Of a DNA stretch of 64,000 bases, positions 7,866 through 60,796 are shown one piece after another (within the stretch, counting starts at the first letter, position 1; each line of letters begins with the position of its first letter). The notes beneath the pieces were generated by a model. The model worked only from the letters and a program-made list of their open reading frames with translations. It did not search any database and was not told the origin of the DNA. The translations under genes were made by a program, and so were the position numbers. This DNA is from an uncultured Planctomycetales bacterium. GTDB lineage: Bacteria; Omnitrophota; Gorgyraeia; Aquiviventales; Aquiviventaceae. Location: positions 6,651 to 70,650 of the forward strand of contig CAYJTP010000004.1 of NCBI GenBank assembly GCA_964373175.1, given 5' to 3'.

Positions 7866-7985
7866 GTGAGTCTAAAGTCGAAAGTCTAAGGTCGAAAGTA
7901 AAAAGAGTTCAAAAACGGCTTTCTGTTTTCTGGTTTTCCAATTGTCACTTTCGACCTTCGACCTTATACGTTCGACCTCCGCTGC
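7866..7985. repeat. AT-rich spacer with 2x direct GTCGAAAGT and 3x inverted (C)TTTCGACC copies. It is a potential long imperfect hairpin or operator array.
   Basis: aagtcgaaagtctaaggtcgaaagt … actttcgaccttcgaccttatacgttcgacc, between the xerC stop and the waaA start. About 42% GC against ~62% for the background. Confidence 0.6.
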
Positions 7986-7987
7986 TT

Positions 7988-8896
7988 TCAGGCACGAGGA
8001 TGAGCTTGTTCATACACCCGCTTGAGGCGTTGCGGGGTGATATGCGTATAGATTTGCGTGGTCGAGAGATGCTGATGGCCCAAAAGCTCTTGGACGCTGC
8101 GTAGATCCGCCCCTCGATCAAGCAGATGGGTCGCGAAACTGTGGCGCAAGCTGTGCGGACTAATGGCCACCGGAAGCTGAACGGTTTTGGCGTATCGCTG
8201 GAGCAAGCGATCCACCTGGCGGACGGTCAACCGCGTCAGTTTCTGGCTAACAAACAGCGCCTGGGGAACCTTGACCCGTTTTGGACGCTTCGTCAGGTAG
8301 CGCTGGACCGTGGTGAGGGCAGTTTTGCCAATCGGACACAGCCGTTCCCGCTTGCCCTTGCCACGAACGATCACAGTCCCGGAAATATCATCCACGTCGT
8401 TGAGATTCAATCCGACGAGCTCGCTGACCCGCATCCCGGTCGAATAGAGCGTCTCGAGGATCGCGCGATCCCGAAGTCCCTGCCACCGATCGGTCGGCGG
8501 GGCCTCAAGCAAACGGCGAACCTGGTCTTCATCGAGAAACGTCGGGAGGCGACGCTCCAGGCGTGGCGCCGGAACGACCGCCGCAGGGTTCTGTTTCAGG
8601 ACGCCTTCGCGACAGAGGAAGCGGAAAAAGCTGCGCAGGCAGGAGAGCCGTCTTGCGATGGTCCGTTTGGCGTAGCGGGAGATACTCTGATGGGCGAGGA
8701 AGCTGCGGATATCAAAGGGCGTGATGTCGCGCAAGGGTTTGTCACCGAGCAGCTGGAAAAATTTGGCCAGATCATCGTGGTAATTGCGACGGGTATAGTC
8801 CGACGTATTGCGCTCAACAGACAGGTAATGGAGGAACCGTTGAATCGCTTGTTGAGGGCGCGTGATTGACTCCTGTCTATCGACTATGTCCGCCAA
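7988..8896 (-). CDS. xerC: Tyrosine site-specific recombinase, XerC/XerD family
   Basis: C-terminal catalytic motifs …HSLRHSFATHLLDRGADLRSVQELLGHQHLSTTQIYTHI… The start lies inside a REP copy, and the listed start is a TTG. Confidence 0.85.
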   Translation of the reverse strand: MADIVDRQESITRPQQAIQRFLHYLSVERNTSDYTRRNYHDDLAKFFQLLGDKPLRDITPFDIRSFLAHQSISRYAKRTIARRLSCLRSFFRFLCREGVLKQNPAAVVPAPRLERRLPTFLDEDQVRRLLEAPPTDRWQGLRDRAILETLYSTGMRVSELVGLNLNDVDDISGTVIVRGKGKRERLCPIGKTALTTVQRYLTKRPKRVKVPQALFVSQKLTRLTVRQVDRLLQRYAKTVQLPVAISPHSLRHSFATHLLDRGADLRSVQELLGHQHLSTTQIYTHITPQRLKRVYEQAHPRA

Positions 8897-11052: not shown

Positions 11053-11331
11053 TCAGACCAGAGACTTGAGACATGAGACTTGAGATCTGTGACTTCCTTG
11101 TCTCTTGTCTCTTGTCTCTTGTCTCTTGAACGCTCCGCCCCCCACGAACTGAACGATCTCCACCTGATCTCCCGCCTTGAGCACCGTTGAGGGCAGTTGG
11201 TCCCGTTTGAGGATCGTGAGATTCACCTCAACCACCACCCGTTCCGGCCGAATGGCGAGCTGCTCCAAGAGCTGGGCCGCCGTGAGCCCCTCGGCCACGT
11301 CTCGCCGCTGTCCATTCACCACTAACTCCAT
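11053..11331 (-). CDS. thiS: ThiS/MoaD-family sulfur-carrier protein. The 66-aa core ends …VQFVGGG and is followed by a 26-aa tail encoded by the heptamer repeat.
   Basis: MELVVNGQRRDVAEGLTAAQLLEQLAIRPERVVVEVNLTILKRDQLPSTVLKAGDQVEIVQFVGGG matches the ThiS pattern. No stop follows GGG. The frame continues as AFKRQETRDKRQG… through gagacaagagacaag repeats to a TGA at 11053. Confidence 0.6.
   Translation of the reverse strand: MELVVNGQRRDVAEGLTAAQLLEQLAIRPERVVVEVNLTILKRDQLPSTVLKAGDQVEIVQFVGGGAFKRQETRDKRQGSHRSQVSCLKSLV
11062..11135. repeat. Heptamer-repeat element (GACAGAR/GAGACAAG family), copy a
   Basis: cttgagacatgagacttgagatctgtgacttccttgtctcttgtctcttgtctcttgtctcttg, located between the thiS core and the topA start. 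Confidence 0.8.
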
Positions 11332-12589: not shown

Positions 12590-12800
12590 CCTCGAATTGT
12601 GGATCGTCGATTGCGCCCGTCCCGGCTCTGAGACTCAACGGCGGGCCGGGGAATTGCGGATTGACCGACGAACCACTCCGCAATCCCTGCCCGCCATGAG
12701 AAGCGAGGGGCAGGCGGGGAAAATCCCTGCCCGCCACGCGGAACATGGGGCAGGCGGGCAAAATCCACAATCCCTGAGGTGTTGAAGCTAGCTCTAAGCA
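12590..12800. repeat. Array of GC-rich palindromic REP-like hairpin units (CCCTGCCCGCC-N10-GGGGCAGGCGGG family). A related unit lies at ~1080-1160.
   Basis: aatccctgcccgccatgagaagcgaggggcaggcggggaa / aatccctgcccgccacgcggaacatggggcaggcgggcaa plus a gaattgcgga…tccgcaatcc hairpin. The same cccgcctgcccc…gggcgggcaggg hairpin and the shared motif ccggctctgRgaYt..acggcgggccgggg occur at 1080-1160. Confidence 0.75.
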
Positions 12801-13461: not shown

Positions 13462-14181
13462 TTACAGGGCGATCGCGGATTCCTCAGGCAAAGGGATGTA
13501 ATAGATCCCAACCTCTCGGTCGGGGGGAACGTGTTGGCGAATTGCCTGATACGCCTTCAAATGCGTGGTTCCGACCGCGACGACGCGATCATTCAGGACC
13601 GCCACGTACTTGCCCCCGTAGCGGGTGGTGAGTTCGTGGCTGTGGGCGAGGAAGTAGTGCCAGCTTGTCGACATCCACGGACCGATCTGGCTCCAGATCC
13701 GCTCGACGACTTCCTCAACCGTGGCGCGACTCGTGTCAAGCGTCAGGTCAGCCTTCGCATAGGCCGAGGCGCGCTGCGCCAATAATTGCTGAATCCGCTG
13801 AAGCGGGGAGGCGGCCTTCGCAAGTAATGGACGGCTCAAGAGGGTTGGACGCGCGCGCTGCACAATGACCCGCGGGCTTGCCGTCAGACAAATCACCGGC
13901 CCCACGGCCCGCAAGAGGCGTTGGTTCTCTGGATTGACAAACGCTCCCCCACCTGTCGCGATGACCTGTTGATGGCCCTTGGCGATCCGACGAATCGCCC
14001 GTTTCTCCAGCCGCCGAAAAACCGCCTCGCCGTGTTCGGCAAAAATCTTGGCGACGGACTCCTTGGCACTGGCGACAATCACGCTATCCACATCGACGAA
14101 CCGCCAGCCCAAGCGCTTCGCCAGCCGCTTGCCGACGGCGGTCTTCCCCGTGCCCATGAAGCCGGTCAGGGTAATGTTCAT
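13462..14181 (-). CDS. aroK: Shikimate kinase with an in-frame C-terminal ~70-aa DUF5678-like domain
   Basis: N-terminus MNITLTGFMGTGKTAVGKRLAKRLGWRFVDVD (P-loop) through …VEEVVERIWSQI is typical AroK (~170 aa). The frame then continues without a stop into MSTSWHYFLAHSHELTTRYGGKYVAVLNDRVVAVGTTHLKAYQAIRQ…IYYIPLPEE. That stretch resembles small standalone DUF5678-type proteins, assigned from memory. Confidence 0.8.
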   Translation of the reverse strand: MNITLTGFMGTGKTAVGKRLAKRLGWRFVDVDSVIVASAKESVAKIFAEHGEAVFRRLEKRAIRRIAKGHQQVIATGGGAFVNPENQRLLRAVGPVICLTASPRVIVQRARPTLLSRPLLAKAASPLQRIQQLLAQRASAYAKADLTLDTSRATVEEVVERIWSQIGPWMSTSWHYFLAHSHELTTRYGGKYVAVLNDRVVAVGTTHLKAYQAIRQHVPPDREVGIYYIPLPEESAIAL

Positions 14182-14184
14182 AGC

Positions 14185-14258
14185 TCAGAGGTCAGAAGAC
14201 AGAGGACAGAAGACAGAATACAGATGACAGGTCAGACCAGAGACAAGAGACATGAGAC
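14185..14258. repeat. Heptamer-repeat element, copy b
   Basis: gtcagaagacagaggacagaagacagaatacagatgacaggtcagaccagagacaagagacatgagaccagagat, between the aroK start and the upstream gene stop. Confidence 0.8.
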
Positions 14259-14264
14259 CAGAGA

Positions 14265-15542
14265 TTAAGGCGCATGTGTCGAGGTTGGTTGCTCCGGTGT
14301 CGCTGCCGCGAGGGCTTCCGGTGGTATGGTGATTTCGATTGGAAGGTTATGGTCGCTAAAGTCCACTGTGTTTTCGAATAAAAATTTCACGTTTTCATTT
14401 TTAGGAGGCGTACCAACTAGCTCCGCAAAGGGCCAACTCTGAATCGTTAGTCTCTTCAGAATTCCTTCTCCCTTTACATGGTCTCTCACAAGAAAATAGC
14501 TGTTTGAATCGATCCACTGCTCAGATATAAAATCAGTAACAACCAGGTTATCTTGGAATGTCGGTAGACTCTCTGGCGTATCGAGCAACCCTTGTAGTAT
14601 TTTCGCAACTCTTTGAAGACCACCGAATTTCTGCCTCACAAGGTAGCATTCCTTACCCTCCAATAAGACTTGTGCAATCTCCGCATTAGCAAATTCAGTT
14701 ATAGCGGTTTGTTTTCCCTCTGGCAACCTACCACTCGCCAAGGTTACCAAATCTTCTGGACGTTCACTAATGAATAGGTCAACTAAAGTGATCTTTCCTT
14801 CGCCCAACATATTCCAAAACTCTGCCACCCCTTTCGCGGTTTCCTCACCGGAAATTTTCTCCCAGCTTCCCAAAAAATTATGGAGCACAGCAGTCTCTGT
14901 GAAATAAATGTCTCTTTTCCTTCGCATCTCCTGTTCCACTACATTTATATCCAGTAATTGGAGGAGGTGTTGCTTTTGATCCGGCTTGAGGTTTAGGTTT
15001 TGTAGGACCTTTTGTCTCTCTTTTTGAAACAGCTCCTTAGCAAATTCACTCTCATGCCGAAGAACCTGATAGGATGCATGGTATCTCTTAGCATCAGCAC
15101 TACCAGCCCCTTCGCCTCTTGCTTCAAGATCAGTAAGGCCTTCGATTGATAAGGTGGTTTGGGCTACTGCCTTAATAGTCCGTATGGCTTTATTTACCCT
15201 CTCATATTTTGTGACGATCTCTTGAGGATCTGGAATCGGGCCGGGTTCTGAAACCTTGGTATCTTGCGTTGCCACAGGAGGCGTTTCAGATATCTTTGTC
15301 CCTGTCTCTGGAGGAGAGCTTGCCTCGATATGGGCGATGGATTCTTTCGCGTAAGGGATCGTTGTCCCACTGGAAACTTCAACTTCGACGGCGGAGTCCG
15401 TCATCTTCACAATTTTTCCCTCAATGACCTTGCCATCCTTGAAGTGGATTTTTTCAGCAAACGCCTCCTCTGACCAAAGAGCTGTGAGCATGACCACAAC
15501 CCACGCTCCCCACCATTTCCAGTCTCTTGTCTCTTGTCTCAT
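14265..15542 (-). CDS. Hypothetical secreted protein (N-terminal signal peptide). The gene has low GC (~45%) and is probably horizontally acquired.
   Basis: Signal-like MRQETRDWKWWGAWVVVMLTALWSEEAFA|EK, then a KIHFKDGKVIEGKIVKMTDSAVEVEV small beta-rich motif. No recognisable catalytic motif. Composition is markedly AT-richer than its neighbours (runs of aaa/gaa codons). Confidence 0.6.
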   Translation of the reverse strand: MRQETRDWKWWGAWVVVMLTALWSEEAFAEKIHFKDGKVIEGKIVKMTDSAVEVEVSSGTTIPYAKESIAHIEASSPPETGTKISETPPVATQDTKVSEPGPIPDPQEIVTKYERVNKAIRTIKAVAQTTLSIEGLTDLEARGEGAGSADAKRYHASYQVLRHESEFAKELFQKERQKVLQNLNLKPDQKQHLLQLLDINVVEQEMRRKRDIYFTETAVLHNFLGSWEKISGEETAKGVAEFWNMLGEGKITLVDLFISERPEDLVTLASGRLPEGKQTAITEFANAEIAQVLLEGKECYLVRQKFGGLQRVAKILQGLLDTPESLPTFQDNLVVTDFISEQWIDSNSYFLVRDHVKGEGILKRLTIQSWPFAELVGTPPKNENVKFLFENTVDFSDHNLPIEITIPPEALAAATPEQPTSTHAP

Positions 15543-15552
15543 GTCTCTCGTC
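15512..15552. repeat. Heptamer-repeat element, copy c
   Basis: cagtctcttgtctcttgtctcatgtctctcgtct. It also supplies the first codons (MRQETRD) of the secreted-protein ORF. Confidence 0.7.
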
Positions 15553-15698
15553 TAAAACTGCTCGAGTTGGCGCAGGTAGCCGTGATAGTTGCGCTTGAGT
15601 TCGCGCAAGGAATCACCGCCAAACTTCTGGAGGATTGCATTGGCCAGTTCGAAGGCGACCATCGCTTCGCCGATCACCCCGGCCGCGGGCATGGTATT
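15552..15698 (-). pseudogene. Duplicated, diverged 3' fragment of aroC (49 codons). It is the relic of the original aroC end displaced by the MntA/HepT cassette.
   Basis: Minus-strand translation gives [49 protein letters not shown]. The intact aroC C-terminus is …[46 protein letters not shown]. Nucleotide identity is ~80% over ~150 bp (15550-15700 against 16337-16487). Confidence 0.85.
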
Positions 15699-16042
15699 CA
15701 TCGCGAGGCGCCACCCAGCAGTTCTTTGGCGGCTTCTTCAAGGCCAGAGAGCTTGTGCTGAACAACATCCCACACGACCTCAACGTTGATGCCGAAATAT
15801 TCATGGATTAAGATGTCCCGTAATCCGGCGATCTTTCTCCACTCGATATGAGGCTTCCGGCTGCGGGCATCCTCCGGCAGACGCTTCACGGCTTCGCCAA
15901 TGACTTCGAGATTCCGGACCACGGCATCCAACGTTTTCGCATCGTTCGACAGGGCGGCGACGGACATACCGCCTGTGAATTCCCGAATCTTTCGAATCGC
16001 CTCAAGGATGTCTTCGAGATAGACCTGAGGGTCCCGTGGCAT
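15698..16042 (-). CDS. hepT: HepT-like toxin (DUF86 / RX4HXY nuclease) of a HepT/MntA type II TA pair
   Basis: …[23 protein letters not shown]… contains the R-x4-H-x-Y motif. ~110 aa, immediately downstream of the cognate nucleotidyltransferase gene. Confidence 0.85.
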
Positions 16043-16322
16043 AAACCGTTTCCTTTAAAATGCCCTCCCGCAACCTCGGCTTAATCGTATCCGCCAACAC
16101 GAGATCGACGGAACATCGAAACAGGTCTTCCAGAAAAAATTTCAGGTTCATGTAGGCATCGAAGCTGTTGTGTTCAAGCTCGACGAGGAAGTCCAGGTCG
16201 CTGCCCGCACCTCCTTCATCGCGGGCGATGGAGCCAAAGAGGCCGAGTCGCCGAACGCCAAGTTGTCGGAGAGCCTGTTGGTTGTCTCGTAGACGTTTCA
16301 AGACCTCTTCTCGAGTCTTCAT
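16002..16322 (-). CDS. mntA: MntA-like minimal nucleotidyltransferase antitoxin
   Basis: GS-x9-DxD nucleotidyltransferase motif (LGLFGSIARDEGGAGSDLDFLVEL). It overlaps the hepT start, as is usual for this TA family. Confidence 0.85.
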   Translation of the reverse strand: MKTREEVLKRLRDNQQALRQLGVRRLGLFGSIARDEGGAGSDLDFLVELEHNSFDAYMNLKFFLEDLFRCSVDLVLADTIKPRLREGILKETVYATGPSGLSRRHP

Positions 16323-16338
16323 CGCATCATCTCCTCAC

Positions 16339-17493
16339 CTAAAACTGCTGGATTTGACGAACATAGCCCTGAAGATTCCGCTTGAGTTCGCGCAAGGAAT
16401 CGCCCCCGAACTTCTCGAGAATCGCCTTCGCCAGCTCAAACGCAATCATCGCTTCCCCGATCACGCCGGCAGCGGGCACAGTACAGACATCCGAGCGCTC
16501 TACTGTGGCGACGACGGGGCGTTTCGTATTGATCTCAACCGAGCGAAGGGGTTTGCGCAGCGTTGAGAGCGGTTTCAAAAATCCCCGGACGATGACCGGC
16601 TGGCCCGTCGTCATGCCACCTTCAAACCCCCCTGCACGATTTGACGAGCGTGTGAACCCTGTTCGCTTGCTGTAGAAAATTTCATCCTGCACTTTCGAAC
16701 CTGGCAGCGAAGCGGCGAGCACCCCATCACCCACTTCAGCAGCTTTCACCGCGTGGATCGCGAGGATCGCGCGTGCCAAGATGGCATCCAACCGCCGGTC
16801 ATATTGGACATAACTCCCCAGTCCAGGCGGAACCCCCTCCGCGATCACTTCAAAAATTCCACCGAGGGTATCGCCCCGCTTCATGCAGGCGTCGATTTCG
16901 CGCATCATGTTCTTTGTCGCCTGTGGATCAAGACATCGGACAGGCGAGGCGTCCGCTTTTTTTCGAAGCTGCGCAATCGACAGCTTCGGGATGCGCGTGG
17001 CACGCGTTGCGCCGATGGCCACGATGTGGCTCGCGAGCTCAATCCCCAGCTCACCCAGGAGTTGCTTGCAGATGGCTCCAACAGCCACCCGTGCTGCGGT
17101 CTCCCGGGCGCTGGCCCGCTCCAGGACATTGCGGATGTCCCGATGGTCGTATTTCATCGCGCCGGTCAGATCGGCATGCCCGGGTCTGGGCTGCGTGACC
17201 ACTAGCAAACGGTCGATGGAAAAGTCTTTGTTGGCAATCTGCAGCGACACCGGGCTTCCCAACGTCACGCCCTTGCGAAGCCCAGAGAGGATCTCGACCC
17301 GATCGGTCTCAAACTGCATACGGGGACCGCGGCCATACCCAAACTGCCGGCGCTTCATCTCGACGTCAATCGCCTCTTGCCGGATCCTCACTCCTGCCGG
17401 CAGACCATCGAGGATGGCCACCAGACATTTGCCGTGTGATTCACCCGCTGTCAAGAAGCGTAACATCAGGCTCTCCACCCGACCAAGGACCAC
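16339..17493 (-). CDS. aroC: Chorismate synthase
   Basis: MLRFLTAGESHGKCLVAILDGLPAG… and conserved AroC blocks (…GRSSNRAGGFEGGMTTGQPV…). 384 aa. Confidence 0.95.
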   Translation of the reverse strand: MVLGRVESLMLRFLTAGESHGKCLVAILDGLPAGVRIRQEAIDVEMKRRQFGYGRGPRMQFETDRVEILSGLRKGVTLGSPVSLQIANKDFSIDRLLVVTQPRPGHADLTGAMKYDHRDIRNVLERASARETAARVAVGAICKQLLGELGIELASHIVAIGATRATRIPKLSIAQLRKKADASPVRCLDPQATKNMMREIDACMKRGDTLGGIFEVIAEGVPPGLGSYVQYDRRLDAILARAILAIHAVKAAEVGDGVLAASLPGSKVQDEIFYSKRTGFTRSSNRAGGFEGGMTTGQPVIVRGFLKPLSTLRKPLRSVEINTKRPVVATVERSDVCTVPAAGVIGEAMIAFELAKAILEKFGGDSLRELKRNLQGYVRQIQQF

Positions 17494-18290
17494 AAGATTT
17501 GAATCGTCTCCTCAATGCCAGTTCTCTGGATCAGCAGAGATCCGCTAAAGAGGGACAGGACGAGCGCCAACGAGAGAAAGGGCCCATACGGAATCACGTG
17601 TGACCGTTTCCACAACAGCACCCCCACACCCGGGATCAGGGCGAGGACTGGAGCGATGAAAAACGTGAAGGTCACCAGTTTCCATCCCAGGATTGACCCC
17701 GCCATCGCCAGCAATTTCACGTCCCCCCCACCCATGGCCTCTTTGCGAAACAAGACGCTTCCAAGCGCCCCGGTTGTGTACAACAACCCTCCCCCCACCG
17801 CCGCGCCAAGGAGAGCACGCTTCAGGGAGACCAAGGCGTGGTCGGTCCCATGAAGGTGGGGGACGAGCAGGCTGAGCAACAGTCCGATGATGAGTCCCCC
17901 GACACTGATTTCATCAGGAATGATCTGGTGCTCCAGATCAATGAAGCTCGCCACCAGGAGCGCCCACACGAACGCCAGATAGATCACCCCAACAACCCCC
18001 ACCCCAAAATGATGGAGCACGGCAACCGTCGACAAGCCACTCAAGGCTTCCACGACGGGGTAGCGCCAGTGGATCGTCGTGTGGCAATGCCGACACCGGG
18101 CGCCAAGCGCCAGGTAACTGAGGATCGGGATGTTGTCATACCACGCGATGGGGCGCTGGCACTGCGGACAGTGCGACCGCGGGTGGATGATCGACTCCTC
18201 GCGAGGCAACCGATAAATGCAGACATTAAGGAAACTCCCCACCATTGCTCCGAGGACGAACCATATCATCCACATCAGTCCATAGTCCAT
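17466..18290 (-). CDS. pilD: Prepilin peptidase / type IV leader peptidase (peptidase A24)
   Basis: N-terminal Cys-rich region (CPQCQRPIAWYDNIPILSYLALGARCRHC) plus multi-TM body with the catalytic Asp region (…GGGDVKLLAMAG…). It overlaps aroC by 28 nt. Confidence 0.85.
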   Translation of the reverse strand: MDYGLMWMIWFVLGAMVGSFLNVCIYRLPREESIIHPRSHCPQCQRPIAWYDNIPILSYLALGARCRHCHTTIHWRYPVVEALSGLSTVAVLHHFGVGVVGVIYLAFVWALLVASFIDLEHQIIPDEISVGGLIIGLLLSLLVPHLHGTDHALVSLKRALLGAAVGGGLLYTTGALGSVLFRKEAMGGGDVKLLAMAGSILGWKLVTFTFFIAPVLALIPGVGVLLWKRSHVIPYGPFLSLALVLSLFSGSLLIQRTGIEETIQILWSLVGWRA

Positions 18291-18356
18291 GGTCCATAGT
18301 CCATAGTCAACAACGAGGTTGCCGGTGGACCATCGACGATTGACTATGGACTATCG
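18279..18356. repeat. Tandem TCCATAGTC/TCCATGGTC octamer repeats (x4) with a downstream inverted copy (gactatggactatcgac).
   Basis: gtccatagtccatggtccatagtccatagtc…gactatggactatcgactg. It spans the aroE-pilD spacer and supplies the pilD initiation codons (ATGGACTATGGACTG = MDYGL). Confidence 0.7.
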
Positions 18357-19259
18357 ACTGCGTGTACGAAGCGCCTGCTCTACCGCCCGGCGCATCACGT
18401 CAATCGGCGGCGGCCGATGCCACCACAGCCTGAATGACTCGGCTCCTTGGTATACTAACATCGGAAGTCCATCCACCGCAAGCGCCCCGCGCCGTCTGGC
18501 CTCCAGCACCAGCTTCGTCGTTGGGGCGCGATAGACCAGGTCGACCACCACCAGCCCCTTGCGAATGGTGCGCGGGGGAACCGGAAGCGGATCGCCGAGG
18601 CGAAGCCCCAGACTCGTCGCATTCACCAGCAGGTCGACCTCCTGAAGACGCCGTCCAATCGCCCGGCGCTCGAAGGGAATCGTCGTCAGCTCGAGGCGCT
18701 CGTGTGTCCCCTGCCGTGATGCGGCACGTCGTAACCACCGGATGAACCTGTTCGTATGCGCCGGTGTGCGGTTCGCCACCGTGATGCGCTCAGGAACCGC
18801 TTGCGTCAGCACCCACCCCACCGCTCGGGCCGCTCCTCCCGTCCCTAAGAGCAGAATGCGTTTCCCCCGACTATGCCAGTGGAGCGCTTCACGGAGCACC
18901 TGACGAAATCCGGCGACATCGGTGTTATACCCGATGAAGCGGCTGCCCTTGCGAACCAGGGTATTCACAGCCCCAACGACCGAGGCCGACTCATCAAGGT
19001 CTGTCCGTGGATTCAACGACCGCATGATCCGCTCTTTGTGCGGAACGGTGATATTCAACCCATCAATGCCGGCCGCTGCTAAACCCTGAAACACCGGGCC
19101 AAGGACTCGGGGCGGGACTTCGAACGGCGCATAGATGGCATCCAGCCCAAGGGCGTCAAAGGCCGCCGTATGCATGAGGGGAGACAGGCTGTGACTGATC
19201 GGGTAGCCGACCACCCCGAAGACACGCGTCATTGGAACGTGGCACGGGGCATGAGACAA
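18351..19259 (-). CDS. aroE: Shikimate dehydrogenase
   Basis: …VFGVVGYPISHSLSPLMHTAAFDALGLDAIYAPFEV… and an NADP-binding GTGGAARAV motif. The likely true start is the internal Met (MTRVFGVV, ~19232). Confidence 0.85.
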   Translation of the reverse strand: MSHAPCHVPMTRVFGVVGYPISHSLSPLMHTAAFDALGLDAIYAPFEVPPRVLGPVFQGLAAAGIDGLNITVPHKERIMRSLNPRTDLDESASVVGAVNTLVRKGSRFIGYNTDVAGFRQVLREALHWHSRGKRILLLGTGGAARAVGWVLTQAVPERITVANRTPAHTNRFIRWLRRAASRQGTHERLELTTIPFERRAIGRRLQEVDLLVNATSLGLRLGDPLPVPPRTIRKGLVVVDLVYRAPTTKLVLEARRRGALAVDGLPMLVYQGAESFRLWWHRPPPIDVMRRAVEQALRTRSR

Positions 19260-26694: not shown

Positions 26695-27120
26695 GTTTCG
26701 TGACCCGTGATTCGTGGCTCGTGACCCGTCAGAGACTATGAATGAGTCTGACAAGCATGCGAGTTTCGTGGTTCACGGCTTCTGCGATGATCTGCATTTG
26801 CGGTGGATGCACATATCTCCTTCTTTGAGCGATAATCAACAATGTGTCCAACTCAGCACACGAACCTAACGAGACGTAAAGATGCTGCTGGTACTCCTTG
26901 GTATGGTGCCTGACAAAGCCTTCAGCGATATTCGTTGGGATTGACACGGCCGCACGTCTCATCTGACTGCTTAACCCATACATCTCCGATTGCGGAAAAG
27001 TCTCTGTCAGTTCGTAAACCAGACCGACGATTTCAACACCTTTTTGCCACACTTGAAGATCTTTATAGTCCTTCACCTTCATCGGCAGTTTACGGATCAC
27101 GGGTCACTGGTCACGAGTCA
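26695..27120. mobile_element. Low-GC cassette carrying a four-helix-bundle gene, flanked by inverted repeats built from GTGACCCGTGA units
   Basis: Left flank ttcgtgacccgtgattcgtggctcgtgacccgtcag. Right flank cggatcacgggtcactggtcacgagtcacggc, which is the reverse-complement arrangement. The enclosed gene is ~48% GC against ~62% for its neighbours. Confidence 0.55.
26729..27100 (-). CDS. Four-helix-bundle protein of the 23S rRNA intervening-sequence protein family
   Basis: 123 aa. …WQKGVEIVGLVYELTETFPQSEMYGLSSQMRRAAVSIPTNIAEGFVRHHTKEYQQHLYVSLGSCAELDT… matches this family as recalled. Confidence 0.7.
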   Translation of the reverse strand: MIRKLPMKVKDYKDLQVWQKGVEIVGLVYELTETFPQSEMYGLSSQMRRAAVSIPTNIAEGFVRHHTKEYQQHLYVSLGSCAELDTLLIIAQRRRYVHPPQMQIIAEAVNHETRMLVRLIHSL

Positions 27121-27613
27121 CGGCAAGTTTCTGGACCAGTTGGGATGAACGGGGCCCGTGGCTGATCGCCGCGATGGTCCGCTGGTTGGTCGTCCGATGG
27201 GTCAGGTAGATTTCGAGGTAGTCCTCTGGGAGACAGCCGCTGAATCGATCCGCCCACTCAATCACCGTCGCCTTCTTTGACGAGAACACCCATTCCAGGT
27301 CCAACCAGACGGCGGAGGCCGCGCCCTCCAACCGATACCCGTCGATATGGATCAGGGGGAGGCGTCCTTGATGCTCGCGTAAGAGGATAAAGGTCGGGCT
27401 TTTCACGCCTCCCGGATCGATGCCAAGCCCTTTCGCGATCCCTTGCACGAAGGTCGTCTTGCCACTGCCCAGTTCCCCCACCAGACCCACCACATCCCCC
27501 TGTGCCAGGAGCTCGCCGAGCCGCTCGCCGAGTTGGTGGGTCTCCTCCACCGAGCGGCTGATCAGTTCAAAAATGTTTGAAGCCTTTTGGGATGAGCGAG
27601 GTGATGCGGCCAT
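27104..27613 (-). CDS. tsaE: tRNA threonylcarbamoyladenosine biosynthesis ATPase TsaE (YjeE)
   Basis: Walker A VVGLVGELGSGKTTFVQGIAKGLG. ~160 aa. Confidence 0.85.
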   Translation of the reverse strand: MAASPRSSQKASNIFELISRSVEETHQLGERLGELLAQGDVVGLVGELGSGKTTFVQGIAKGLGIDPGGVKSPTFILLREHQGRLPLIHIDGYRLEGAASAVWLDLEWVFSSKKATVIEWADRFSGCLPEDYLEIYLTHRTTNQRTIAAISHGPRSSQLVQKLAVTRDQ

Positions 27614-31326: not shown

Positions 31327-32391
31327 TCAGGGGCGTGGGGCGTGGGGCGTGGGGCGTGGGGCATCGCTCTGACCGTGCCCCTCGTCTCTCGCCCCCTGCC
31401 CCAACAAATCAAGCCATTCTTCGCGTAAGAGGGTCCCGACCAATCGGGGGCTCACCATCTGCTCAAGGGACCCCCATAACTCAATGAGCCGGAGGCCCGT
31501 CTCCACGCAGCGCTCGCTGTCCACCTGCTTCGCTTGCCGATGGATCGTCGTGGCGGCGTCCCGATGGCTCACCAGCGACTCATCCGCCACGGCCGCAACC
31601 GCAAGGTCACGAAGCCACGCAATCGACCCCATGAGCCAGGAAGCCACTTCCTGACGGTCCATCGGGACCGCCCATCCCAGCCACGGAGCTGGCGAGGCTG
31701 CACCAAACTGCGCGACCATTCCCTCCAGCGCCTTCCACTGCGTCATCACCTCAAGTGCCCGCGAGAGGCTCCCTTGGGCCAGACGGCTGATGGCCTGCGC
31801 AATCTGTGGAGGACAGGCGTGCCTGGTGACCAGCGAGTCTTCGATGAGGGAAGCGGACAGCCGAGCAAACCGAATGACCTGGCATCGCGAGACAATCGTC
31901 GCAAGGCAGCGGGCGGGCTGATCGGTCAGGAGAACAAACCGCGCGTGGGCGGGCGGTTCTTCGAGCGACTTCAGGAGGATGTTCCCCGCTTCCTCGGTCA
32001 ACCGATCCGCCCCATCCACGATCACCACCTGACACGTCCCCATGAAGGGACGCAGCGCAATCCGGCCTAACACGCCCCGAACCTCATCGATCCGAATCAG
32101 CTCTGAGGCGCCATGCGGGAAAAGCCCGTGCACATCAGGATGGACCTGGCGGTCGATCCGCTGACAGCTGTCGCAGCGATCACAGGAGTCGCTGTCGCCG
32201 TGTTCGCAGTTGAGGGCTTTAGCTAATGTTCTCGCCACGAGGCGCTTGCCGACCCCATCCGGTCCCACAAAGAGATACGCAAGCGCCAGACGCTGGCGGC
32301 TCGCGTGGGTCTGCAAGATCCGAAGGGCAAGGGCTTGTCCATGAATCTCCGTCCACGCCATCCGACCGAGTCCTATCCTGAAGGCCGCCAC
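31327..32391 (-). CDS. holB: DNA polymerase III delta-prime subunit
   Basis: AAA+ fold with AYLFVGPDGVGKRLVARTLAKALNCEH and the Zn module CDRCDSCQ. The C-terminal tail (…DAPRPTPHAPRP) is encoded by GGGGCGTGGGGCGTGGGG repeats. Confidence 0.85.
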   Translation of the reverse strand: MAAFRIGLGRMAWTEIHGQALALRILQTHASRQRLALAYLFVGPDGVGKRLVARTLAKALNCEHGDSDSCDRCDSCQRIDRQVHPDVHGLFPHGASELIRIDEVRGVLGRIALRPFMGTCQVVIVDGADRLTEEAGNILLKSLEEPPAHARFVLLTDQPARCLATIVSRCQVIRFARLSASLIEDSLVTRHACPPQIAQAISRLAQGSLSRALEVMTQWKALEGMVAQFGAASPAPWLGWAVPMDRQEVASWLMGSIAWLRDLAVAAVADESLVSHRDAATTIHRQAKQVDSERCVETGLRLIELWGSLEQMVSPRLVGTLLREEWLDLLGQGARDEGHGQSDAPRPTPHAPRP

Positions 32392-35814: not shown

Positions 35815-35915
35815 TCAGAGGACAGAAGTCAGAAATCAGAAGACAGATCAACGCTAAACACACCGGAGGGTCTATTCTGATTTCTGTCCTCTGCCATCTG
35901 TCCTCTGGTACCTCC
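35815..35915. repeat. Heptamer-repeat element, copy e: inverted pair forming a long hairpin between ispD and ispF
   Basis: cagaggacagaagtcagaaatcagaagacaga…(loop)…tctgatttctgtcctctgccatctgtcctctg. Confidence 0.8.
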
Positions 35916-39274: not shown

Positions 39275-39372
39275 ACTTCGCGATCAGAAGACAGAGGTCA
39301 GAAGTCAGAGGACAGGCGCGGCCGAGCTTATTGGGTACCTGTCTTCTGTCGTCTGTCTTCTGTCTTCTGTCC
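39275..39372. repeat. Heptamer-repeat element, copy f: inverted pair or hairpin between mlaD and radA
   Basis: gatcagaagacagaggtcagaagtcagaggacagg…ctgtcttctgtcgtctgtcttctgtcttctgtcc. Confidence 0.8.
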
Positions 39373-46491: not shown

Positions 46492-46666
46492 CCTCTTACT
46501 AGTCTAGCAGGTTTTCAACGGGAGGCAAAGTGGGCGCCTGTTAGAGCTGGTTCCACAACCTCCCGTGGCTGTGGGCTGGGGGCTGTGGGCTCTGGGCACG
46601 GGCGACAGACGACCCCGAGCCCCGAACCCTGAGCCCTCAGCCGAGAAACGGGTTTGAAAGATGCTG

Positions 46667-50073: not shown

Positions 50074-51582
50074 TCACTCAGGTTTCAACAAGGGAAATAA
50101 AATCACATCCTTGATTGAAGGCTGGTCGAACAAGAGCATCGCTAATCGGTCGACCCCAAGGCCCAACCCTGTGGCCGGCGGCATGCCGTATTCCAGTGCC
50201 TCAAGAAAGTCTTCGTCAACCATTCGGGGGGGCGAGGGGCGTGGGGCACGGGGCGAGGATCGGGTTTTCCCTCGCCCCCGGTCTCCCGCCCCCTGCCCCT
50301 GTTCCTTTAATTGCGCTTCAAACCGTCGTCGCTGCTCAATCGGATCATTCAATTCCGAGTAGGCGTTGGCGACCTCAAAACCCCCGATGAACAGCTCAAA
50401 CCGCTCCGCGATGAGTGGGTTGTCCAGCCGGCTTTTCGCCAAGGGTGAGAGCTCGGTCCAGTAGTCCGTCACAAAGACCGGCACGTCCTTGGTCTTGGGT
50501 TCCACGAGCTGCTCCACGACATGGAGGATCTGGGAGCGTGTCTGGGCTTTGAGCTCGACCTTCGGAAATCCCGACTTCGGCGCTTTCAACTTGCGCTGCA
50601 TCGCTTCAAGTCCATCTTGAGGACCCAAGTCGTAGCCGGTCTTGAGCAGCTCAGTGAATGAGATGATTTCCCAGTCTTTGGCCAAATCGATTGCCTGGCC
50701 TTGATAGGTCAATTGCAACCGTCCCAGCGTGTGCGTCGCGGCCCCCCGGATGAGTTCTTGGACCAACTTCATCATGTACGTGTAGTCCTCATAGGCGCAG
50801 TAGGCTTCGAGCATCGTAAATTCAGGATTGTGTTTGGTGGAGAGCCCTTCGTTGCGAAACGATCGGTTGAGCTCATAGACCTTCTCAAAGCCGCCCACGA
50901 GCAGTTTCTTGAGATACAGCTCCGGAGCGAGGCGCAGATACAGCTCACACCCCAACGTCTGATGATGGGTGACAAACGGCTCGCCCGTCGCCCCGCCTGG
51001 GATCGGATGCATCATGGGCGTTTCGACCTCGAGGTAGCCGTGCGCGTTGAGCGTGGAGCGCAGGCTGTCAAGCAGCCGGGTGCGCTGCTCGAATGCCCGA
51101 CGGACGGGCTCATTCGCGATGAGATCCAGATACCGTTTGCGATAGCGGATCTCCACGTCGCGCAGCCCATGCCATTTCTCCGGCAGGGGTTTCAGCGACT
51201 TTGCCAGCAAGGTGAAGCGGCTGACCTGAATGGTGATCTCGCCGGTCTTGGTTTGGCACAACCGGCCTTCCACCCCAAGGCAATCCCCGAGATCGATGTT
51301 GTCAAAGAGCTGATAGGCGGCCTCGCCCAGTTGCTCTTGGCGAAGGCACAGTTGGATCTTGCCGCTTGCGTCACGAAGATCCGCGAAGGTGAGTGCGCCG
51401 TGAGAACGTTTGGCGCTCAGGCGACCGGCGGTCGTGACCGTTTCGCCGTCGTGGAAGTGCTCCACCAACCACTGGATGGATCGGGTCTTGGGAAACTTGC
51501 CCCCATATGGCTGGATGCCGTGTGAGCGCAACGTGTCGCGGTGCTTTCGTCGTGCGGCTGTAAGCTCATCATAGGTACCCAT
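50074..51582 (-). CDS. lysS: Lysyl-tRNA synthetase (class II) carrying an in-frame ~25-aa palindromic-element insertion near the C-terminus
   Basis: OB-fold anticodon-binding N-terminus, class II motifs (…FRNEGLSTKHNPEFTMLE…), then …RRRFEAQLKEQGQGAGDRGRGKTRSSPRAPRPSPPRMVDEDFLEALEYGMPPATGLGLGVDRL… E. coli has …[37 protein letters not shown]…. Confidence 0.95.
   Translation of the reverse strand: MGTYDELTAARRKHRDTLRSHGIQPYGGKFPKTRSIQWLVEHFHDGETVTTAGRLSAKRSHGALTFADLRDASGKIQLCLRQEQLGEAAYQLFDNIDLGDCLGVEGRLCQTKTGEITIQVSRFTLLAKSLKPLPEKWHGLRDVEIRYRKRYLDLIANEPVRRAFEQRTRLLDSLRSTLNAHGYLEVETPMMHPIPGGATGEPFVTHHQTLGCELYLRLAPELYLKKLLVGGFEKVYELNRSFRNEGLSTKHNPEFTMLEAYCAYEDYTYMMKLVQELIRGAATHTLGRLQLTYQGQAIDLAKDWEIISFTELLKTGYDLGPQDGLEAMQRKLKAPKSGFPKVELKAQTRSQILHVVEQLVEPKTKDVPVFVTDYWTELSPLAKSRLDNPLIAERFELFIGGFEVANAYSELNDPIEQRRRFEAQLKEQGQGAGDRGRGKTRSSPRAPRPSPPRMVDEDFLEALEYGMPPATGLGLGVDRLAMLLFDQPSIKDVILFPLLKPE
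50226..50302. repeat. GC-rich hairpin element (GGGGCGAGGGGCGTGGGGCACGGGGCGAGG … CCTCGCCCCCGGTCTCCCGCCCCCTGCCCC) inserted in frame in lysS
   Basis: Read directly. It is translated as QGQGAGDRGRGKTRSSPRAPRPSPP. Related non-coding copies at ~20920-21000, ~31330-31400, ~40925-41000 and ~19250-19320. Confidence 0.75.
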
Positions 51583-60662: not shown

Positions 60663-60796
60663 CTAGAGTCAATCACCAAATTCCAAATCCCAAATTCCAA
60701 ATAAGCACCAATAACCAAGCACCAATCACCAAACCAAAGGCTCATGCCCTCTTGAGCAGGTTGATGATTGGAATTTGGTCATTGGAACTTGTTTGG

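What the first reader, a model, noticed from the sequence alone, without database searches (positions are those of the whole stretch)
14265..15542. Low-GC island encoding a 425-aa secreted protein of unknown function, flanked by heptamer repeats
The gene has a codon and GC profile (~45% GC) foreign to the ~62% GC host. It carries a signal peptide and an N-terminal small beta-rich module, with no recognisable enzymatic motif. It sits between two heptamer-repeat copies and next to an MntA/HepT TA cassette. This is the signature of a horizontally acquired accessory gene, possibly a secreted effector, adhesin or phage-defence-related protein.
Basis: partly seen in the sequence, partly recalled or inferred. 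Interest (0 to 1): 0.55.

Follow-up and report, generated by a model that had tools for sequence, protein, structure and literature searches.

The report
Foreign orphan gene inside intergenic hairpin
A 1.25-kb stretch of low-GC foreign DNA carrying one gene for a probably exported protein, with no relatives for most of its length, sits in the loop of a native hairpin between two shikimate-pathway genes of an uncultured Omnitrophota bacterium; this is an ordinary strain-specific acquisition, and the insertion site is the more interesting part.

Summary
Window 14265-15542 (-) is a real 425-codon ORF with GC 46.1% and GC3 44.8%, against 61% and 72% for 46 other ORFs (z -7.7 and -5.7). The host is a high-GC Candidatus Omnitrophota bacterium. 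About 50 related loci keep the order aroE-pilD-aroC-aroK-protease-dprA, and none carries this gene.

One relative (L087) has the empty site. There the aroC stop is followed by a GAGAC-type heptamer array, a 27-nt spacer, the inverted array and the aroK start. The gene therefore entered the loop of a native intergenic hairpin. The flanking heptamers belong to the host and are found genome-wide (32 period-7 TRF rows in the window, 0-3 per shuffle). They are not island ends.

The protein has a signal peptide (AFA|EK), a confidently modelled five-stranded Sm/SH3-like barrel, a Pro/Thr-rich linker and a 317-residue C-terminal domain. That domain has no homologue among 5.8 billion protein clusters, even at E<=10. 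Nothing links the gene to MntA/HepT, defence, phages or plasmids.

Horizontal acquisition is supported. The effector, adhesin and defence guesses are not. Function remains unknown; an accessory envelope protein is the best guess. A second low-GC gene (a 23S-rRNA-IVP protein) also sits in a split heptamer hairpin.

The parts
14265..15542 (-). Low-GC ORF, 425 aa (410 aa if started at GTG codon 16, position 15497)
   Evidence: identical gene on two Logan contigs
15456..15542 (-). Predicted Sec signal peptide, aa 1-29, with cleavage at AFA|EK. Codons 1 to about 9 are encoded by the native heptamer arm.
   Evidence: alignment with 13 homologues; helix 5-23 in the model; junction mapped against L087
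15318..15455 (-). N-terminal five-stranded small beta-barrel (Sm/SH3-like), aa 30-75
   Evidence: AF2 pLDDT 90 or higher; Foldseek matches to Hfq and YgdR, rmsd 0.9-2.3 A over 45-51 residues; weak NF047433, YajC and RimP-SH3 hits
15219..15317 (-). Pro/Thr/Glu-rich acidic linker, aa 76-108
   Evidence: sequence; pI 4.25, GRAVY -1.09; no secondary structure in the model
14268..15218 (-). Orphan C-terminal domain, aa 109-425, with no detectable homologue
   Evidence: single-sequence AF2 pLDDT below 50
14268..15514 (.). Inferred inserted foreign segment, about 1.25 kb; boundaries approximate
   Evidence: collinearity of both arms with the empty site in L087; GC profile
15515..15553 (.). Upstream (5') hairpin arm: heptamer array (GAGACAW)n on the sense strand, abutting the TAG of the aroC remnant. 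It contains the ORF's ATG.
14234..14264 (.). Downstream (3') hairpin arm: inverted array (TCTCNNG)n on the sense strand, starting right after the ORF's TAA
   Evidence: 24 nt, 92% complementary; duplex -48.8 against -20.8+-4.4 kcal/mol
14186..14230 (.). Further heptamer array (CAGAAGA/CAGAGGA on the + strand) running up to the aroK start; no partner arm found
15552..15701 (-). Duplicated, diverged aroC 3' end: a 49-codon ORF. Its ATG overlaps the hepT stop (ATGA) and its TAG lies 9 nt before the target's ATG.
   Evidence: called as a 49-aa gene
15698..16042 (-). hepT (RX4HXY present)
   Evidence: PF01934, E 7e-31
16002..16322 (-). mntA nucleotidyltransferase antitoxin
   Evidence: PF01909 and PF18765; PADLOC PDC-S09
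16339..17493 (-). aroC (chorismate synthase), the upstream core gene. Its last 150 nt (16334-16483) are one copy of the direct repeat.
13462..14181 (-). aroK (shikimate kinase fused to DUF5678), the downstream core gene

Best explanation
The feature is a lineage-specific, horizontally acquired single gene. About 1.25 kb of roughly 45% GC DNA was inserted into the spacer (loop) of the native inverted heptamer-array hairpin. In this Omnitrophota clade that hairpin fills the gap between aroC and aroK.

The insertion fused the incoming reading frame to an ATG inside the upstream arm. That arm supplies about 9 codons, which form the n-region of the signal peptide. No sigma-70-type promoter or intrinsic terminator was predicted on the coding strand near the gene. 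It is therefore most likely transcribed by read-through of the aroC-mntA-hepT-...-aroK operon, because aroK lies downstream.

The product is most likely a Sec-exported, signal-peptidase-I-processed, soluble acidic protein of about 44 kDa in the cell envelope. It has an N-terminal Sm/SH3-like small beta-barrel, a module that many uncharacterised exported proteins place in front of unrelated C-terminal domains. A flexible Pro/Thr-rich linker follows, and then a 317-residue domain unique to this organism. The protein probably acts by binding rather than catalysis.

Shown here: foreign composition, absence from relatives, the empty site, the fold of the N-module and the orphan status of the C-domain.

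Inferred only: export, co-transcription, a non-enzymatic role and the accessory envelope function.
For: Composition: z -7.7 (GC) and -5.7 (GC3).

Real ORF.

Synteny: aroE-pilD-aroC-aroK-protease-dprA is conserved in about 50 loci, with no tblastn hit to the gene.

Empty site: L087 has a GAGAC-type left arm that is collinear with the window's as far as GAGACTG(G/A)A, and a GTCTC-type right arm. The arms are 24 nt at 92% complementary, with duplex energy -48.8 against -20.8+-4.4 kcal/mol.

Hotspot: in relatives the same gap holds other cargo. This includes VapBC plus AbrB, a different MntA/HepT, a hydrolase-like secreted protein, small secreted proteins or lipoproteins, and a membrane protein.

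Signal peptide and N-module: shared with 13 distant homologues. Fold confirmed.

C-domain: no hit at E<=10 in 5.8e9 clusters and none beyond residue 216 in 1.84e9 representatives.

Expression signals: no sigma-70-like promoter or terminator found on the minus strand.

Not an artefact: three independent assemblies hold the identical arrangement.
Against: There are no expression data. Export is predicted by eye and by homology, not by a dedicated predictor.

The ATG sits inside a potential long stem and has only a weak GAGAG Shine-Dalgarno. GTG codon 16 has GGAG 8 nt upstream and is the start chosen by gene callers. That start would remove the n-region and half the h-region.

There is no polymorphism or orthologue to show purifying selection, because L001 and L002 are 100% identical to the window.

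The C-domain structure could not be predicted (pLDDT below 50), so 'non-enzymatic' rests only on the absence of hits and motifs.

The donor is unknown.
Confidence: 0.7

Rival explanations
1. The gene is an inert passenger. A truncated foreign gene fragment lost its own start and ribosome-binding site on insertion. If translated at all, it starts at GTG-16 or ATG-18, is not exported, and is on its way to decay.
For: The insertion junction lies at about codon 9, so the original 5' end is missing. GGAG lies 8 nt before GTG-16, which is the start gene callers use. The ATG-1 region would be sequestered if the arms pair. There is no evidence of selection. The gene is a singleton in all databases.
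Against: The 425-codon frame is fully intact in 46% GC DNA where the other frames have 12-31 stops. The frame stays open and in phase back to an ATG that restores a positively charged n-region in front of a complete h-region and AxA site.
Confidence: 0.2
2. The gene plus its two heptamer arms is a mobile cassette. The arrays would act as terminal inverted repeats or as a folded recombination site, like a transposon, MITE or integron cassette.
For: Inverted repeats bracket exactly one ORF. A second low-GC gene (23S_rRNA_IVP) is bracketed in the same way.
Against: L087 has the same arm types at the same junction with only a 27-nt spacer and no gene. Arms of other unit sequences occupy this gap in other species. 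The arrays occur in most intergenic regions. No transposase or integron integrase was found, and the nearby Xer recombinase is syntenic in relatives. The two cargo-bearing hairpins use different units.
Confidence: 0.05
3. The protein is a third component or effector of the adjacent MntA/HepT module, or of a defence system.
For: The gene lies 156 nt downstream of hepT on the same strand, with possible translational coupling through the 49-codon remnant ORF. MntA matches the PADLOC candidate system PDC-S09.
Against: MntA/HepT pairs in L004 and L078 lack this gene. The cassette has its own 150-nt flanking direct repeat that excludes the gene. The gene has no significant PADLOC or PHROGs hit. An exported protein is an odd partner for a cytoplasmic RNase toxin system.
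Confidence: 0.03
4. The low-GC stretch is a metagenome assembly chimera, or a native gene that merely has odd composition.
For: The window probably comes from a metagenome-assembled genome.
Against: The arrangement is identical in two further independent assemblies (ERR4904390, ERR3478686). Both flanks are the same syntenic operon. The gene is absent from all relatives.
Confidence: 0.02

Closest known systems
Strain-specific genomic islets: single ORFan genes inserted at hotspots between conserved core genes
   Same: Atypical GC and codon usage, presence/absence polymorphism against conserved synteny, and a junction that carries different cargo in different relatives (TA systems, small secreted proteins).
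   Different: No integrase, tRNA, IS element or direct repeats of its own. The insertion point is the loop of a heptamer-array hairpin, and the ORF borrows its start codon from the hairpin arm.
Exported proteins with the Leptospira-type N-terminal module (NCBIfam NF047433 Lepto_7_Nterm; also the PTPDL, LB_137 and LIC_13076 families) and the metagenomic proteins P0002-P0014
   Same: Signal peptide, AxA|(E/D)(K/T)I, a beta module of about 45 residues with the invariant glycines, and a Pro-rich linker before a variable C-terminal domain.
   Different: The score of 31 bits is below the curated cutoff of 43 bits, so it is not a member by NCBI's rule. The C-terminal domain is unrelated to any of theirs.
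Sm/SH3-like small beta-barrels (Hfq; E. coli lipoprotein YgdR, PDB 3fif)
   Same: Five-stranded barrel topology; rmsd 0.9-1.6 A over 45-50 residues for Hfq chains and 2.3 A over 51 for YgdR.
   Different: Sequence identity is 14-22%. There is no Sm1/Sm2 RNA-binding motif context, and the domain is exported. This is fold resemblance only.
Intergenic repeat hairpins: REP/BIME of enterobacteria, cyanobacterial STRR heptamers, and TAACTGA heptamer repeats of Beggiatoaceae (PMC4679880)
   Same: Short repeats concentrated in intergenic regions inside operons. Period 7 is shared with STRR and TAACTGA.
   Different: Here the arrays come as inverted pairs that form hairpins. The unit sequence differs from locus to locus and from species to species, while the two arms stay complementary. 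TAACTGA repeats are direct, with one fixed unit.
23S rRNA intervening sequences that carry an ORF in a stem-loop (PF05635 23S_rRNA_IVP)
   Same: An ORF enclosed by a long stem made from flanking inverted repeats. A PF05635 gene occupies the other split hairpin in this window.
   Different: The site is not in rRNA. No evidence of RNase III processing was obtained, and the target gene is unrelated to IVP.
MntA/HepT toxin-antitoxin pair
   Same: Neighbouring genes 15698-16322 are bona fide members.
   Different: The target gene is not part of the pair.

Membership tests
Horizontally acquired genomic islet | Base composition and codon usage deviate from the host | tested here: met
   GC 0.461 and GC3 0.448, against 0.611 and 0.72; z -7.7 and -5.7
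Horizontally acquired genomic islet | Absent from related genomes that keep the flanking synteny | tested here: met
   About 50 loci have aroC-aroK adjacent and none gives a tblastn hit
Horizontally acquired genomic islet | A recognisable empty site in a relative | tested here: met
   L087 has the same GAGAC/GTCTC arms with a 27-nt spacer
Horizontally acquired genomic islet | Mobility gene or terminal repeats of its own | tested here: not met
   No integrase or transposase in the island. The Xer gene at 7988-8896 is syntenic in relatives. The flanking repeats are native.
Sec/SPase I secreted protein | n-, h- and c-regions with an AxA cleavage motif; no lipobox | tested here: met
   MRQETRDWK / WWGAWVVVMLTALW / SEEAFA|EK. 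It aligns with homologues' signal peptides. It is the only hydrophobic segment. No lipobox.
Sec/SPase I secreted protein | Score from a dedicated predictor, or experimental export | not testable with these tools
   No SignalP-type tool was available. The start-codon ambiguity (ATG-1 or GTG-16) is unresolved.
NCBIfam NF047433 Lepto_7_Nterm domain | Score at or above the curated cutoff (43 bits) | tested here: not met
   31 bits, E 1.5e-7, aa 22-72
Sm/SH3-like small beta-barrel fold | Five-stranded barrel superposable on known members | tested here: met
   AF2 pLDDT 90 or higher for aa 30-73. Foldseek matches Hfq at rmsd 0.9-1.6 A and YgdR at 2.3 A.
MntA/HepT system (as an extra component) | Co-occurrence with the pair in other genomes | tested here: not met
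   L004 and L078 have the pairs without this gene. The gene has no homologues anywhere.
Known anti-phage defence proteins (PADLOC) or phage proteins (PHROGs) | Significant profile match | tested here: not met
   Best PADLOC hit E 0.015 over 35 aa; best PHROGs hit E 0.11. No tblastn hit in phages, IMG/VR or plasmids.
Any Pfam enzyme or adhesin family (C-terminal domain) | Profile match or catalytic motif | tested here: not met
   No Pfam family at E<=10 for aa 106-425. No HExxH, GxSxG, CxxC, P-loop, RGD or LPxTG.
Integron cassette or transposon with terminal inverted repeats | Repeats belong to the mobile unit, and a recombinase is present | tested here: not met
   The arms are present at the empty site. 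No intI or transposase in the window region examined.

The most novel reading that the evidence does not exclude
The inverted heptamer-array hairpins fill intergenic gaps in this Omnitrophota clade. Their unit sequences are locus-specific and species-specific, yet the two arms stay complementary. They may be preferred capture sites for foreign genes. Both low-GC genes found in this 64-kb window sit exactly in split hairpins: the 425-aa orphan and a 23S-rRNA-IVP gene. In each case the arms could still pair over the gene (-48.8 and -43.7 kcal/mol). That would enclose the cassette in a long stem like an rRNA intervening sequence, which could be cut out of or insulated from the operon transcript. 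The orphan C-terminal domain would then be one example of cargo recruited in this way.
Probability: 0.12. Interest if true: 0.65.

Novelty: new member of a known kind. Interest (0 to 1): 0.33.

Why it matters
The gene itself is another strain-specific orphan, of a kind common in uncultured lineages. Its value is mainly as a clean, base-pair-resolved example of gene acquisition in Omnitrophota, a phylum with no isolates. The example includes an empty-site comparison, and the incoming ORF is fused to a start codon supplied by a host repeat. The context is more interesting. Operon-internal hairpins built from inverted heptamer arrays appear to be a clade-wide, undescribed genome feature, and the aroC-aroK gap is a hotspot for toxin-antitoxin pairs and small exported proteins. 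If hairpin loops really are preferred entry points, that would describe a new route by which accessory genes enter streamlined genomes without mobile-element machinery.

Tried and rejected
1. Homology for function. Pfam, NCBIfam, PADLOC, PHROGs and PDB sequence searches gave nothing beyond the N-module. So did the word-indexed search of 5.8e9 clusters, run on the full length and on the C-domain alone at E<=10. The same holds for exhaustive phmmer against 1.84e9 representatives, JGI metagenome contigs, IMG/VR, phages and plasmids.

2. Structure of the C-domain. Single-sequence AF2 gave pLDDT below 50, so no fold search was run on it. The afdb50 library was unavailable.

3. Annotation of the N-module homologues. 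All are unnamed metagenomic singletons.

4. Deciding which aroC 3' copy is ancestral by identity to 35 relatives. The two are indistinguishable: 0.83 and 0.84 nt identity to the nearest relative. Only position favours the remnant, because it abuts the native arm as in relatives.

5. Polymorphism or dN/dS. The only other copies are 100% identical over 7-9 kb.

6. Testing whether hairpin pairing is selected in RNA. Folding energies of sense and antisense strands were compared for 35 hairpins. There was no asymmetry: 18 against 17, Wilcoxon p 0.90.

7. Long-spacer inverted array pairs in relatives as further split hairpins. Those found are two neighbouring complete hairpins with similar units around native-GC genes (for example leuA in the window and L016), not split ones.

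8. IVP homologues in the fetched loci: none.

9. Paralogues of either domain in the window or loci: none. Internal repeats: none.

10. Literature on heptamer arrays in Omnitrophota: nothing found.

11. Rfam over the whole window: no family.

12. The LolA-like impression from the sequence around aa 105-135 and the C-terminus is from memory only. Pfam gave no LolA-like hit even at E<=10, so it is not claimed.
Full report

Yes. Window 14265..15542 on the minus strand is an uninterrupted ATG-to-TAA frame of 425 codons. It is not a chance frame. In 2000 first-order shuffles of the same 1278 nt, the longest open frame averaged 113 codons and never exceeded 253. The other five frames carry 12-31 stops. 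GC1/GC2/GC3 of 0.55/0.38/0.45 is a normal coding pattern for a genome of about 45% GC.

The gene's GC is 0.461 and its GC3 0.448. The 46 other ORFs of at least 150 aa in the window average 0.611 (sd about 0.02) and 0.72 (sd about 0.05), giving z-scores of -7.7 and -5.7. The 200-nt profile falls to 0.41-0.50 only across this ORF, and the low GC runs through the whole gene. At the 1-kb scale no other stretch of the 64 kb comes close.

HepT is PF01934 (E 7e-31) at 15698-16042, and MntA is PF01909 at 16002-16322. Period-7 arrays lie at 14186-14264 and 15522-15553.

**2. Host and genomic context**

Chorismate synthase (16339-17493) finds its best relatives at 71-86% identity in MAGs labelled Candidatus Omnitrophota. 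Some are mislabelled Planctomycetales. They have 55-68% GC and come largely from groundwater.

About 50 related loci keep the gene order aroE-pilD-aroC-aroK-clan-AA protease-dprA-thiS-topA-xer. None gives any tblastn match to the 425-aa protein.

The only other copies in public data are on two Logan contigs (ERR4904390, ERR3478686). These are 100% identical to the window over 9.1 and 7.2 kb, so they are the same strain. That rules out an assembly chimera, but it provides no polymorphism to analyse.

**3. The heptamer repeats are host features, and the gene sits in a split hairpin**

TRF reports 32 period-7 rows in the window, against 0-3 in each of 20 Markov shuffles. Across 55 loci of the clade (468 kb) there are 186 such arrays and 52 inverted pairs. 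About 40 of the pairs have spacers of 120 nt or less. They fold into strong hairpins, with z-scores of -4 to -8.

At the orthologous aroC-aroK gap the basic state is: stop codon, array, short spacer, inverted array, ATG. The unit differs by species:
- CACACAG in L007, L012, L016 and L085
- CGTATAG in L010
- CAAGACT in L086
- GGGATCG in L099

In every case the two arms stay complementary.

L087 (aroC 81% identical) has TAG-(ACNTGAG)x4-ACTGAAG, a 27-nt spacer, then (GTCTCNN)x7-ATG. Its left arm is collinear with the window's TAG-ACGAGAG-ACATGAG-ACAAGAG-ACAAGAG-ACTGGA. Its right arm is of the same type as the window's TCTCTGG-TCTCATG-TCTCTTG-TCTCTGG.

In the window the two arms are 24 nt at 92% complementary, or 32 nt at 81%, but lie 1.25 kb apart. 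Each side lacks a local partner. Their RNA duplex energy is -48.8 kcal/mol, against -20.8+-4.4 for shuffled partners.

The simplest reading is that about 1.25 kb of foreign DNA (roughly 14268-15514) entered the loop of a pre-existing hairpin. The flanking heptamers are therefore not the ends of the island. Because they flank most genes here, their mere presence carries no information.

**4. The junction is a hotspot, and MntA/HepT is a separate event**

In relatives the aroC-aroK gap ranges from 3 bp to 1 kb. When it is long it carries unrelated cargo:
- an AbrB-type gene plus VapBC (L008)
- a different MntA/HepT, 41% identical (L004)
- a hydrolase-like secreted protein (L009)
- small secreted proteins or lipoproteins (L014, L015, L105, L109)
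- a 200-aa secreted protein (L098)
- a low-GC membrane protein (L003)

In the window, mntA-hepT is bracketed by a 150-nt direct repeat (15547-15696 and 16334-16483, 79% identical). The repeat consists of two diverged copies of the aroC 3' end.

The downstream copy is a 49-codon ORF. Its ATG overlaps the hepT stop, and its TAG lies 9 nt upstream of the target's ATG. It abuts the native hairpin arm exactly as the aroC stop does in relatives, which suggests it is the ancestral 3' end. Sequence identity to 35 relatives cannot decide this.

The repeat excludes the target gene, and MntA/HepT pairs in L004 and L078 occur without it. The adjacency therefore reflects a shared hotspot, not a shared function.

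**5. The protein**

Residues 1-29 look like a Sec signal peptide: n-region MRQETRDWK, h-region WWGAWVVVMLTALW, c-region SEEAFA|EK. This is the only hydrophobic segment, and there is no lipobox.

Exhaustive phmmer against 1.84 billion representatives found 13 weak hits (E 7e-6 to 1e-3). Twelve are confined to residues 6-129; the thirteenth, P0004, aligns over 12-216, which I did not examine but suspect reflects linker composition. All share the same layout: signal peptide, AxA|(E/D)(K/T)I, a conserved module of about 45 residues with three invariant glycines, a Pro-rich linker, and then unrelated C-terminal domains.

With that alignment, AlphaFold2 models residues 30-73 as five strands at pLDDT 90 or higher. 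Foldseek places the module among Sm/SH3-like small barrels. It matches Hfq at rmsd 0.9-1.6 A over 45-50 residues and the E. coli lipoprotein YgdR at 2.3 A over 51.

Sequence-level hits are sub-threshold: NF047433 Lepto_7_Nterm at 31 bits against a cutoff of 43, and weak YajC and RimP-SH3 matches.

Residues 76-108 form an acidic Pro/Thr-rich linker.

Residues 109-425 are a complete orphan:
- no Pfam family even at E<=10
- no hit other than itself at E<=10 among 5.8 billion clusters
- nothing in JGI metagenome contigs, IMG/VR, phage or plasmid collections
- nothing significant in PDB sequences, PADLOC or PHROGs
- no internal repeats
- no simple catalytic or adhesin motif

Single-sequence AlphaFold2 gave pLDDT below 50 for this part, so no fold assignment is possible.

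**6. How it most likely works**

Shown: a foreign single gene inserted in a hairpin loop inside the aroC...aroK operon.

Inferred:
- No sigma-70-like promoter or terminator was detected on the coding strand, and aroK lies downstream. The gene is therefore probably transcribed by read-through.
- The junction maps to about codon 9. The ATG and the charged n-region are thus supplied by the host arm, in frame with a foreign h-region and cleavage site.
- If ATG-1 is used, the product is exported and processed to a soluble acidic protein of 44 kDa (pI 5.2). It would have a small-barrel 'handle', a flexible linker and a unique domain. Such a layout suggests a binding or scaffolding role in the envelope rather than catalysis.

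I put about 0.85 on the acquisition scenario and about 0.6 on export. I place no more than a weak preference on any particular function.

The main rival (0.2) is that the fragment is an inert passenger. GTG codon 16 has GGAG 8 nt upstream and is the start chosen by gene callers. ATG-1 would be buried if the arms pair. A product starting at codon 16 would lack a working signal peptide.

**7. Comparison with known systems, and novelty**

The finding belongs to a well-known kind: a compositionally foreign, strain-specific ORFan at a hotspot between core genes. It is not a member of any named protein family. The one family whose curated threshold could be tested (NF047433) was not met. It is not part of MntA/HepT, not a recognised defence gene, and not an integron cassette or transposon, because the arms are present at the empty site and no recombinase is associated.

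The context is less ordinary. Inverted heptamer arrays with locus-specific units differ from REP/BIME, from cyanobacterial STRR and from the fixed-unit direct TAACTGA repeats (PMC4679880). I found no description of them in Omnitrophota and no Rfam match.

A second low-GC gene in the window is a PF05635 23S-rRNA-IVP protein (26729-27082, GC 0.469). It also lies exactly between the arms of a split heptamer hairpin, between tsaE and tsaB. Its arms have a duplex energy of -43.7 kcal/mol, against -18.2+-3.9 for shuffled partners.

This hints that hairpin loops collect foreign genes, but the hint is weak. The arms abut the flanking stop and start codons, so the loop is the only place where an insertion does no damage. 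A sense-against-antisense folding test on 35 hairpins showed no RNA-specific signal.

**8. Verdict**

The horizontal-transfer interpretation is supported. The heptamer 'signature' and the effector, adhesin and defence suggestions are not supported. Interest is modest (0.33). The gene is an ordinary orphan acquisition, documented unusually cleanly, in a genome whose intergenic hairpins deserve their own study.

Noticed in passing
window 26697-27123: A 117-aa 23S_rRNA_IVP four-helix-bundle gene (26729-27082, minus strand; PF05635 E 2.4e-34; GC 0.469) lies exactly between two inverted heptamer arrays (26697-26729 and 27092-27123), in the tsaE-tsaB gap. The arms could pair at -43.7 kcal/mol, against -18.2+-3.9 for shuffled partners. 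This is a second low-GC gene in a split hairpin.
   Followed up: partly
window-wide, e.g. 7869-7978, 11061-11128, 18277-18359, 35815-35907, 39284-39371, 46567-46642, 60671-60868; also loci L005-L016 and L085-L100: Intergenic inverted pairs of period-7 tandem arrays form strong hairpins (z -4 to -8). The unit sequence differs between loci and between species at the same locus, while the arms stay complementary. Counts: 186 arrays and 52 inverted pairs in 468 kb of the clade. No Rfam family and no literature were found. There was no sense/antisense folding asymmetry.
   Followed up: partly
window 15547-15696 and 16334-16483: A 150-nt direct repeat (79% identical) made of two diverged copies of the aroC 3' end brackets the mntA-hepT cassette. 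The downstream copy is a 49-codon ORF (15552-15701) overlapping the hepT stop. This looks like the scar of integration of a segment carrying its own aroC end. Which copy is ancestral could not be decided from identity.
   Followed up: partly
aroC-aroK gaps of L003, L004, L008, L009, L014, L015, L098, L105, L109: The same junction carries different cargo in different relatives: VapBC plus AbrB, another MntA/HepT, a hydrolase-like secreted protein, small secreted proteins or lipoproteins, and a low-GC membrane protein. It is an insertion hotspot inside a shikimate operon.
   Followed up: partly
window 11053-11331 (-): The ThiS-family ORF (PF02597) has no stop after its C-terminal GG. It reads about 25 further codons through the heptamer arrays at 11061-11128, ending just before topA. 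In several relatives the tblastn match to this ORF likewise extends well past residue 67 (their stop codons were not checked).
   Followed up: no
window 13462-14181 (-): Shikimate kinase carries a C-terminal DUF5678 domain (aa 183-230). The fusion is conserved across the clade.
   Followed up: no
window 31330-31362, 50229-50299, 52238-52304: G-rich heptamer arrays (GGGGCGT, GGGGCGA, GGGGCGG), the last two with adjacent C-rich partners. They are potential G-quadruplex or hairpin formers, and some overlap the ends of long ORFs.
   Followed up: no
window 12682-12766: A 40-nt tandem repeat (2.1 copies, 84% match) lies in the gap between dprA and the clan-AA protease gene. Each unit contains its own GC-rich palindrome.
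   Followed up: no
window 15497-15511: GGAG lies 8 nt upstream of in-frame GTG codon 16 of the target. This is the start used by automatic gene calls (410 aa). It would give a product without a functional signal peptide.
   Followed up: partly
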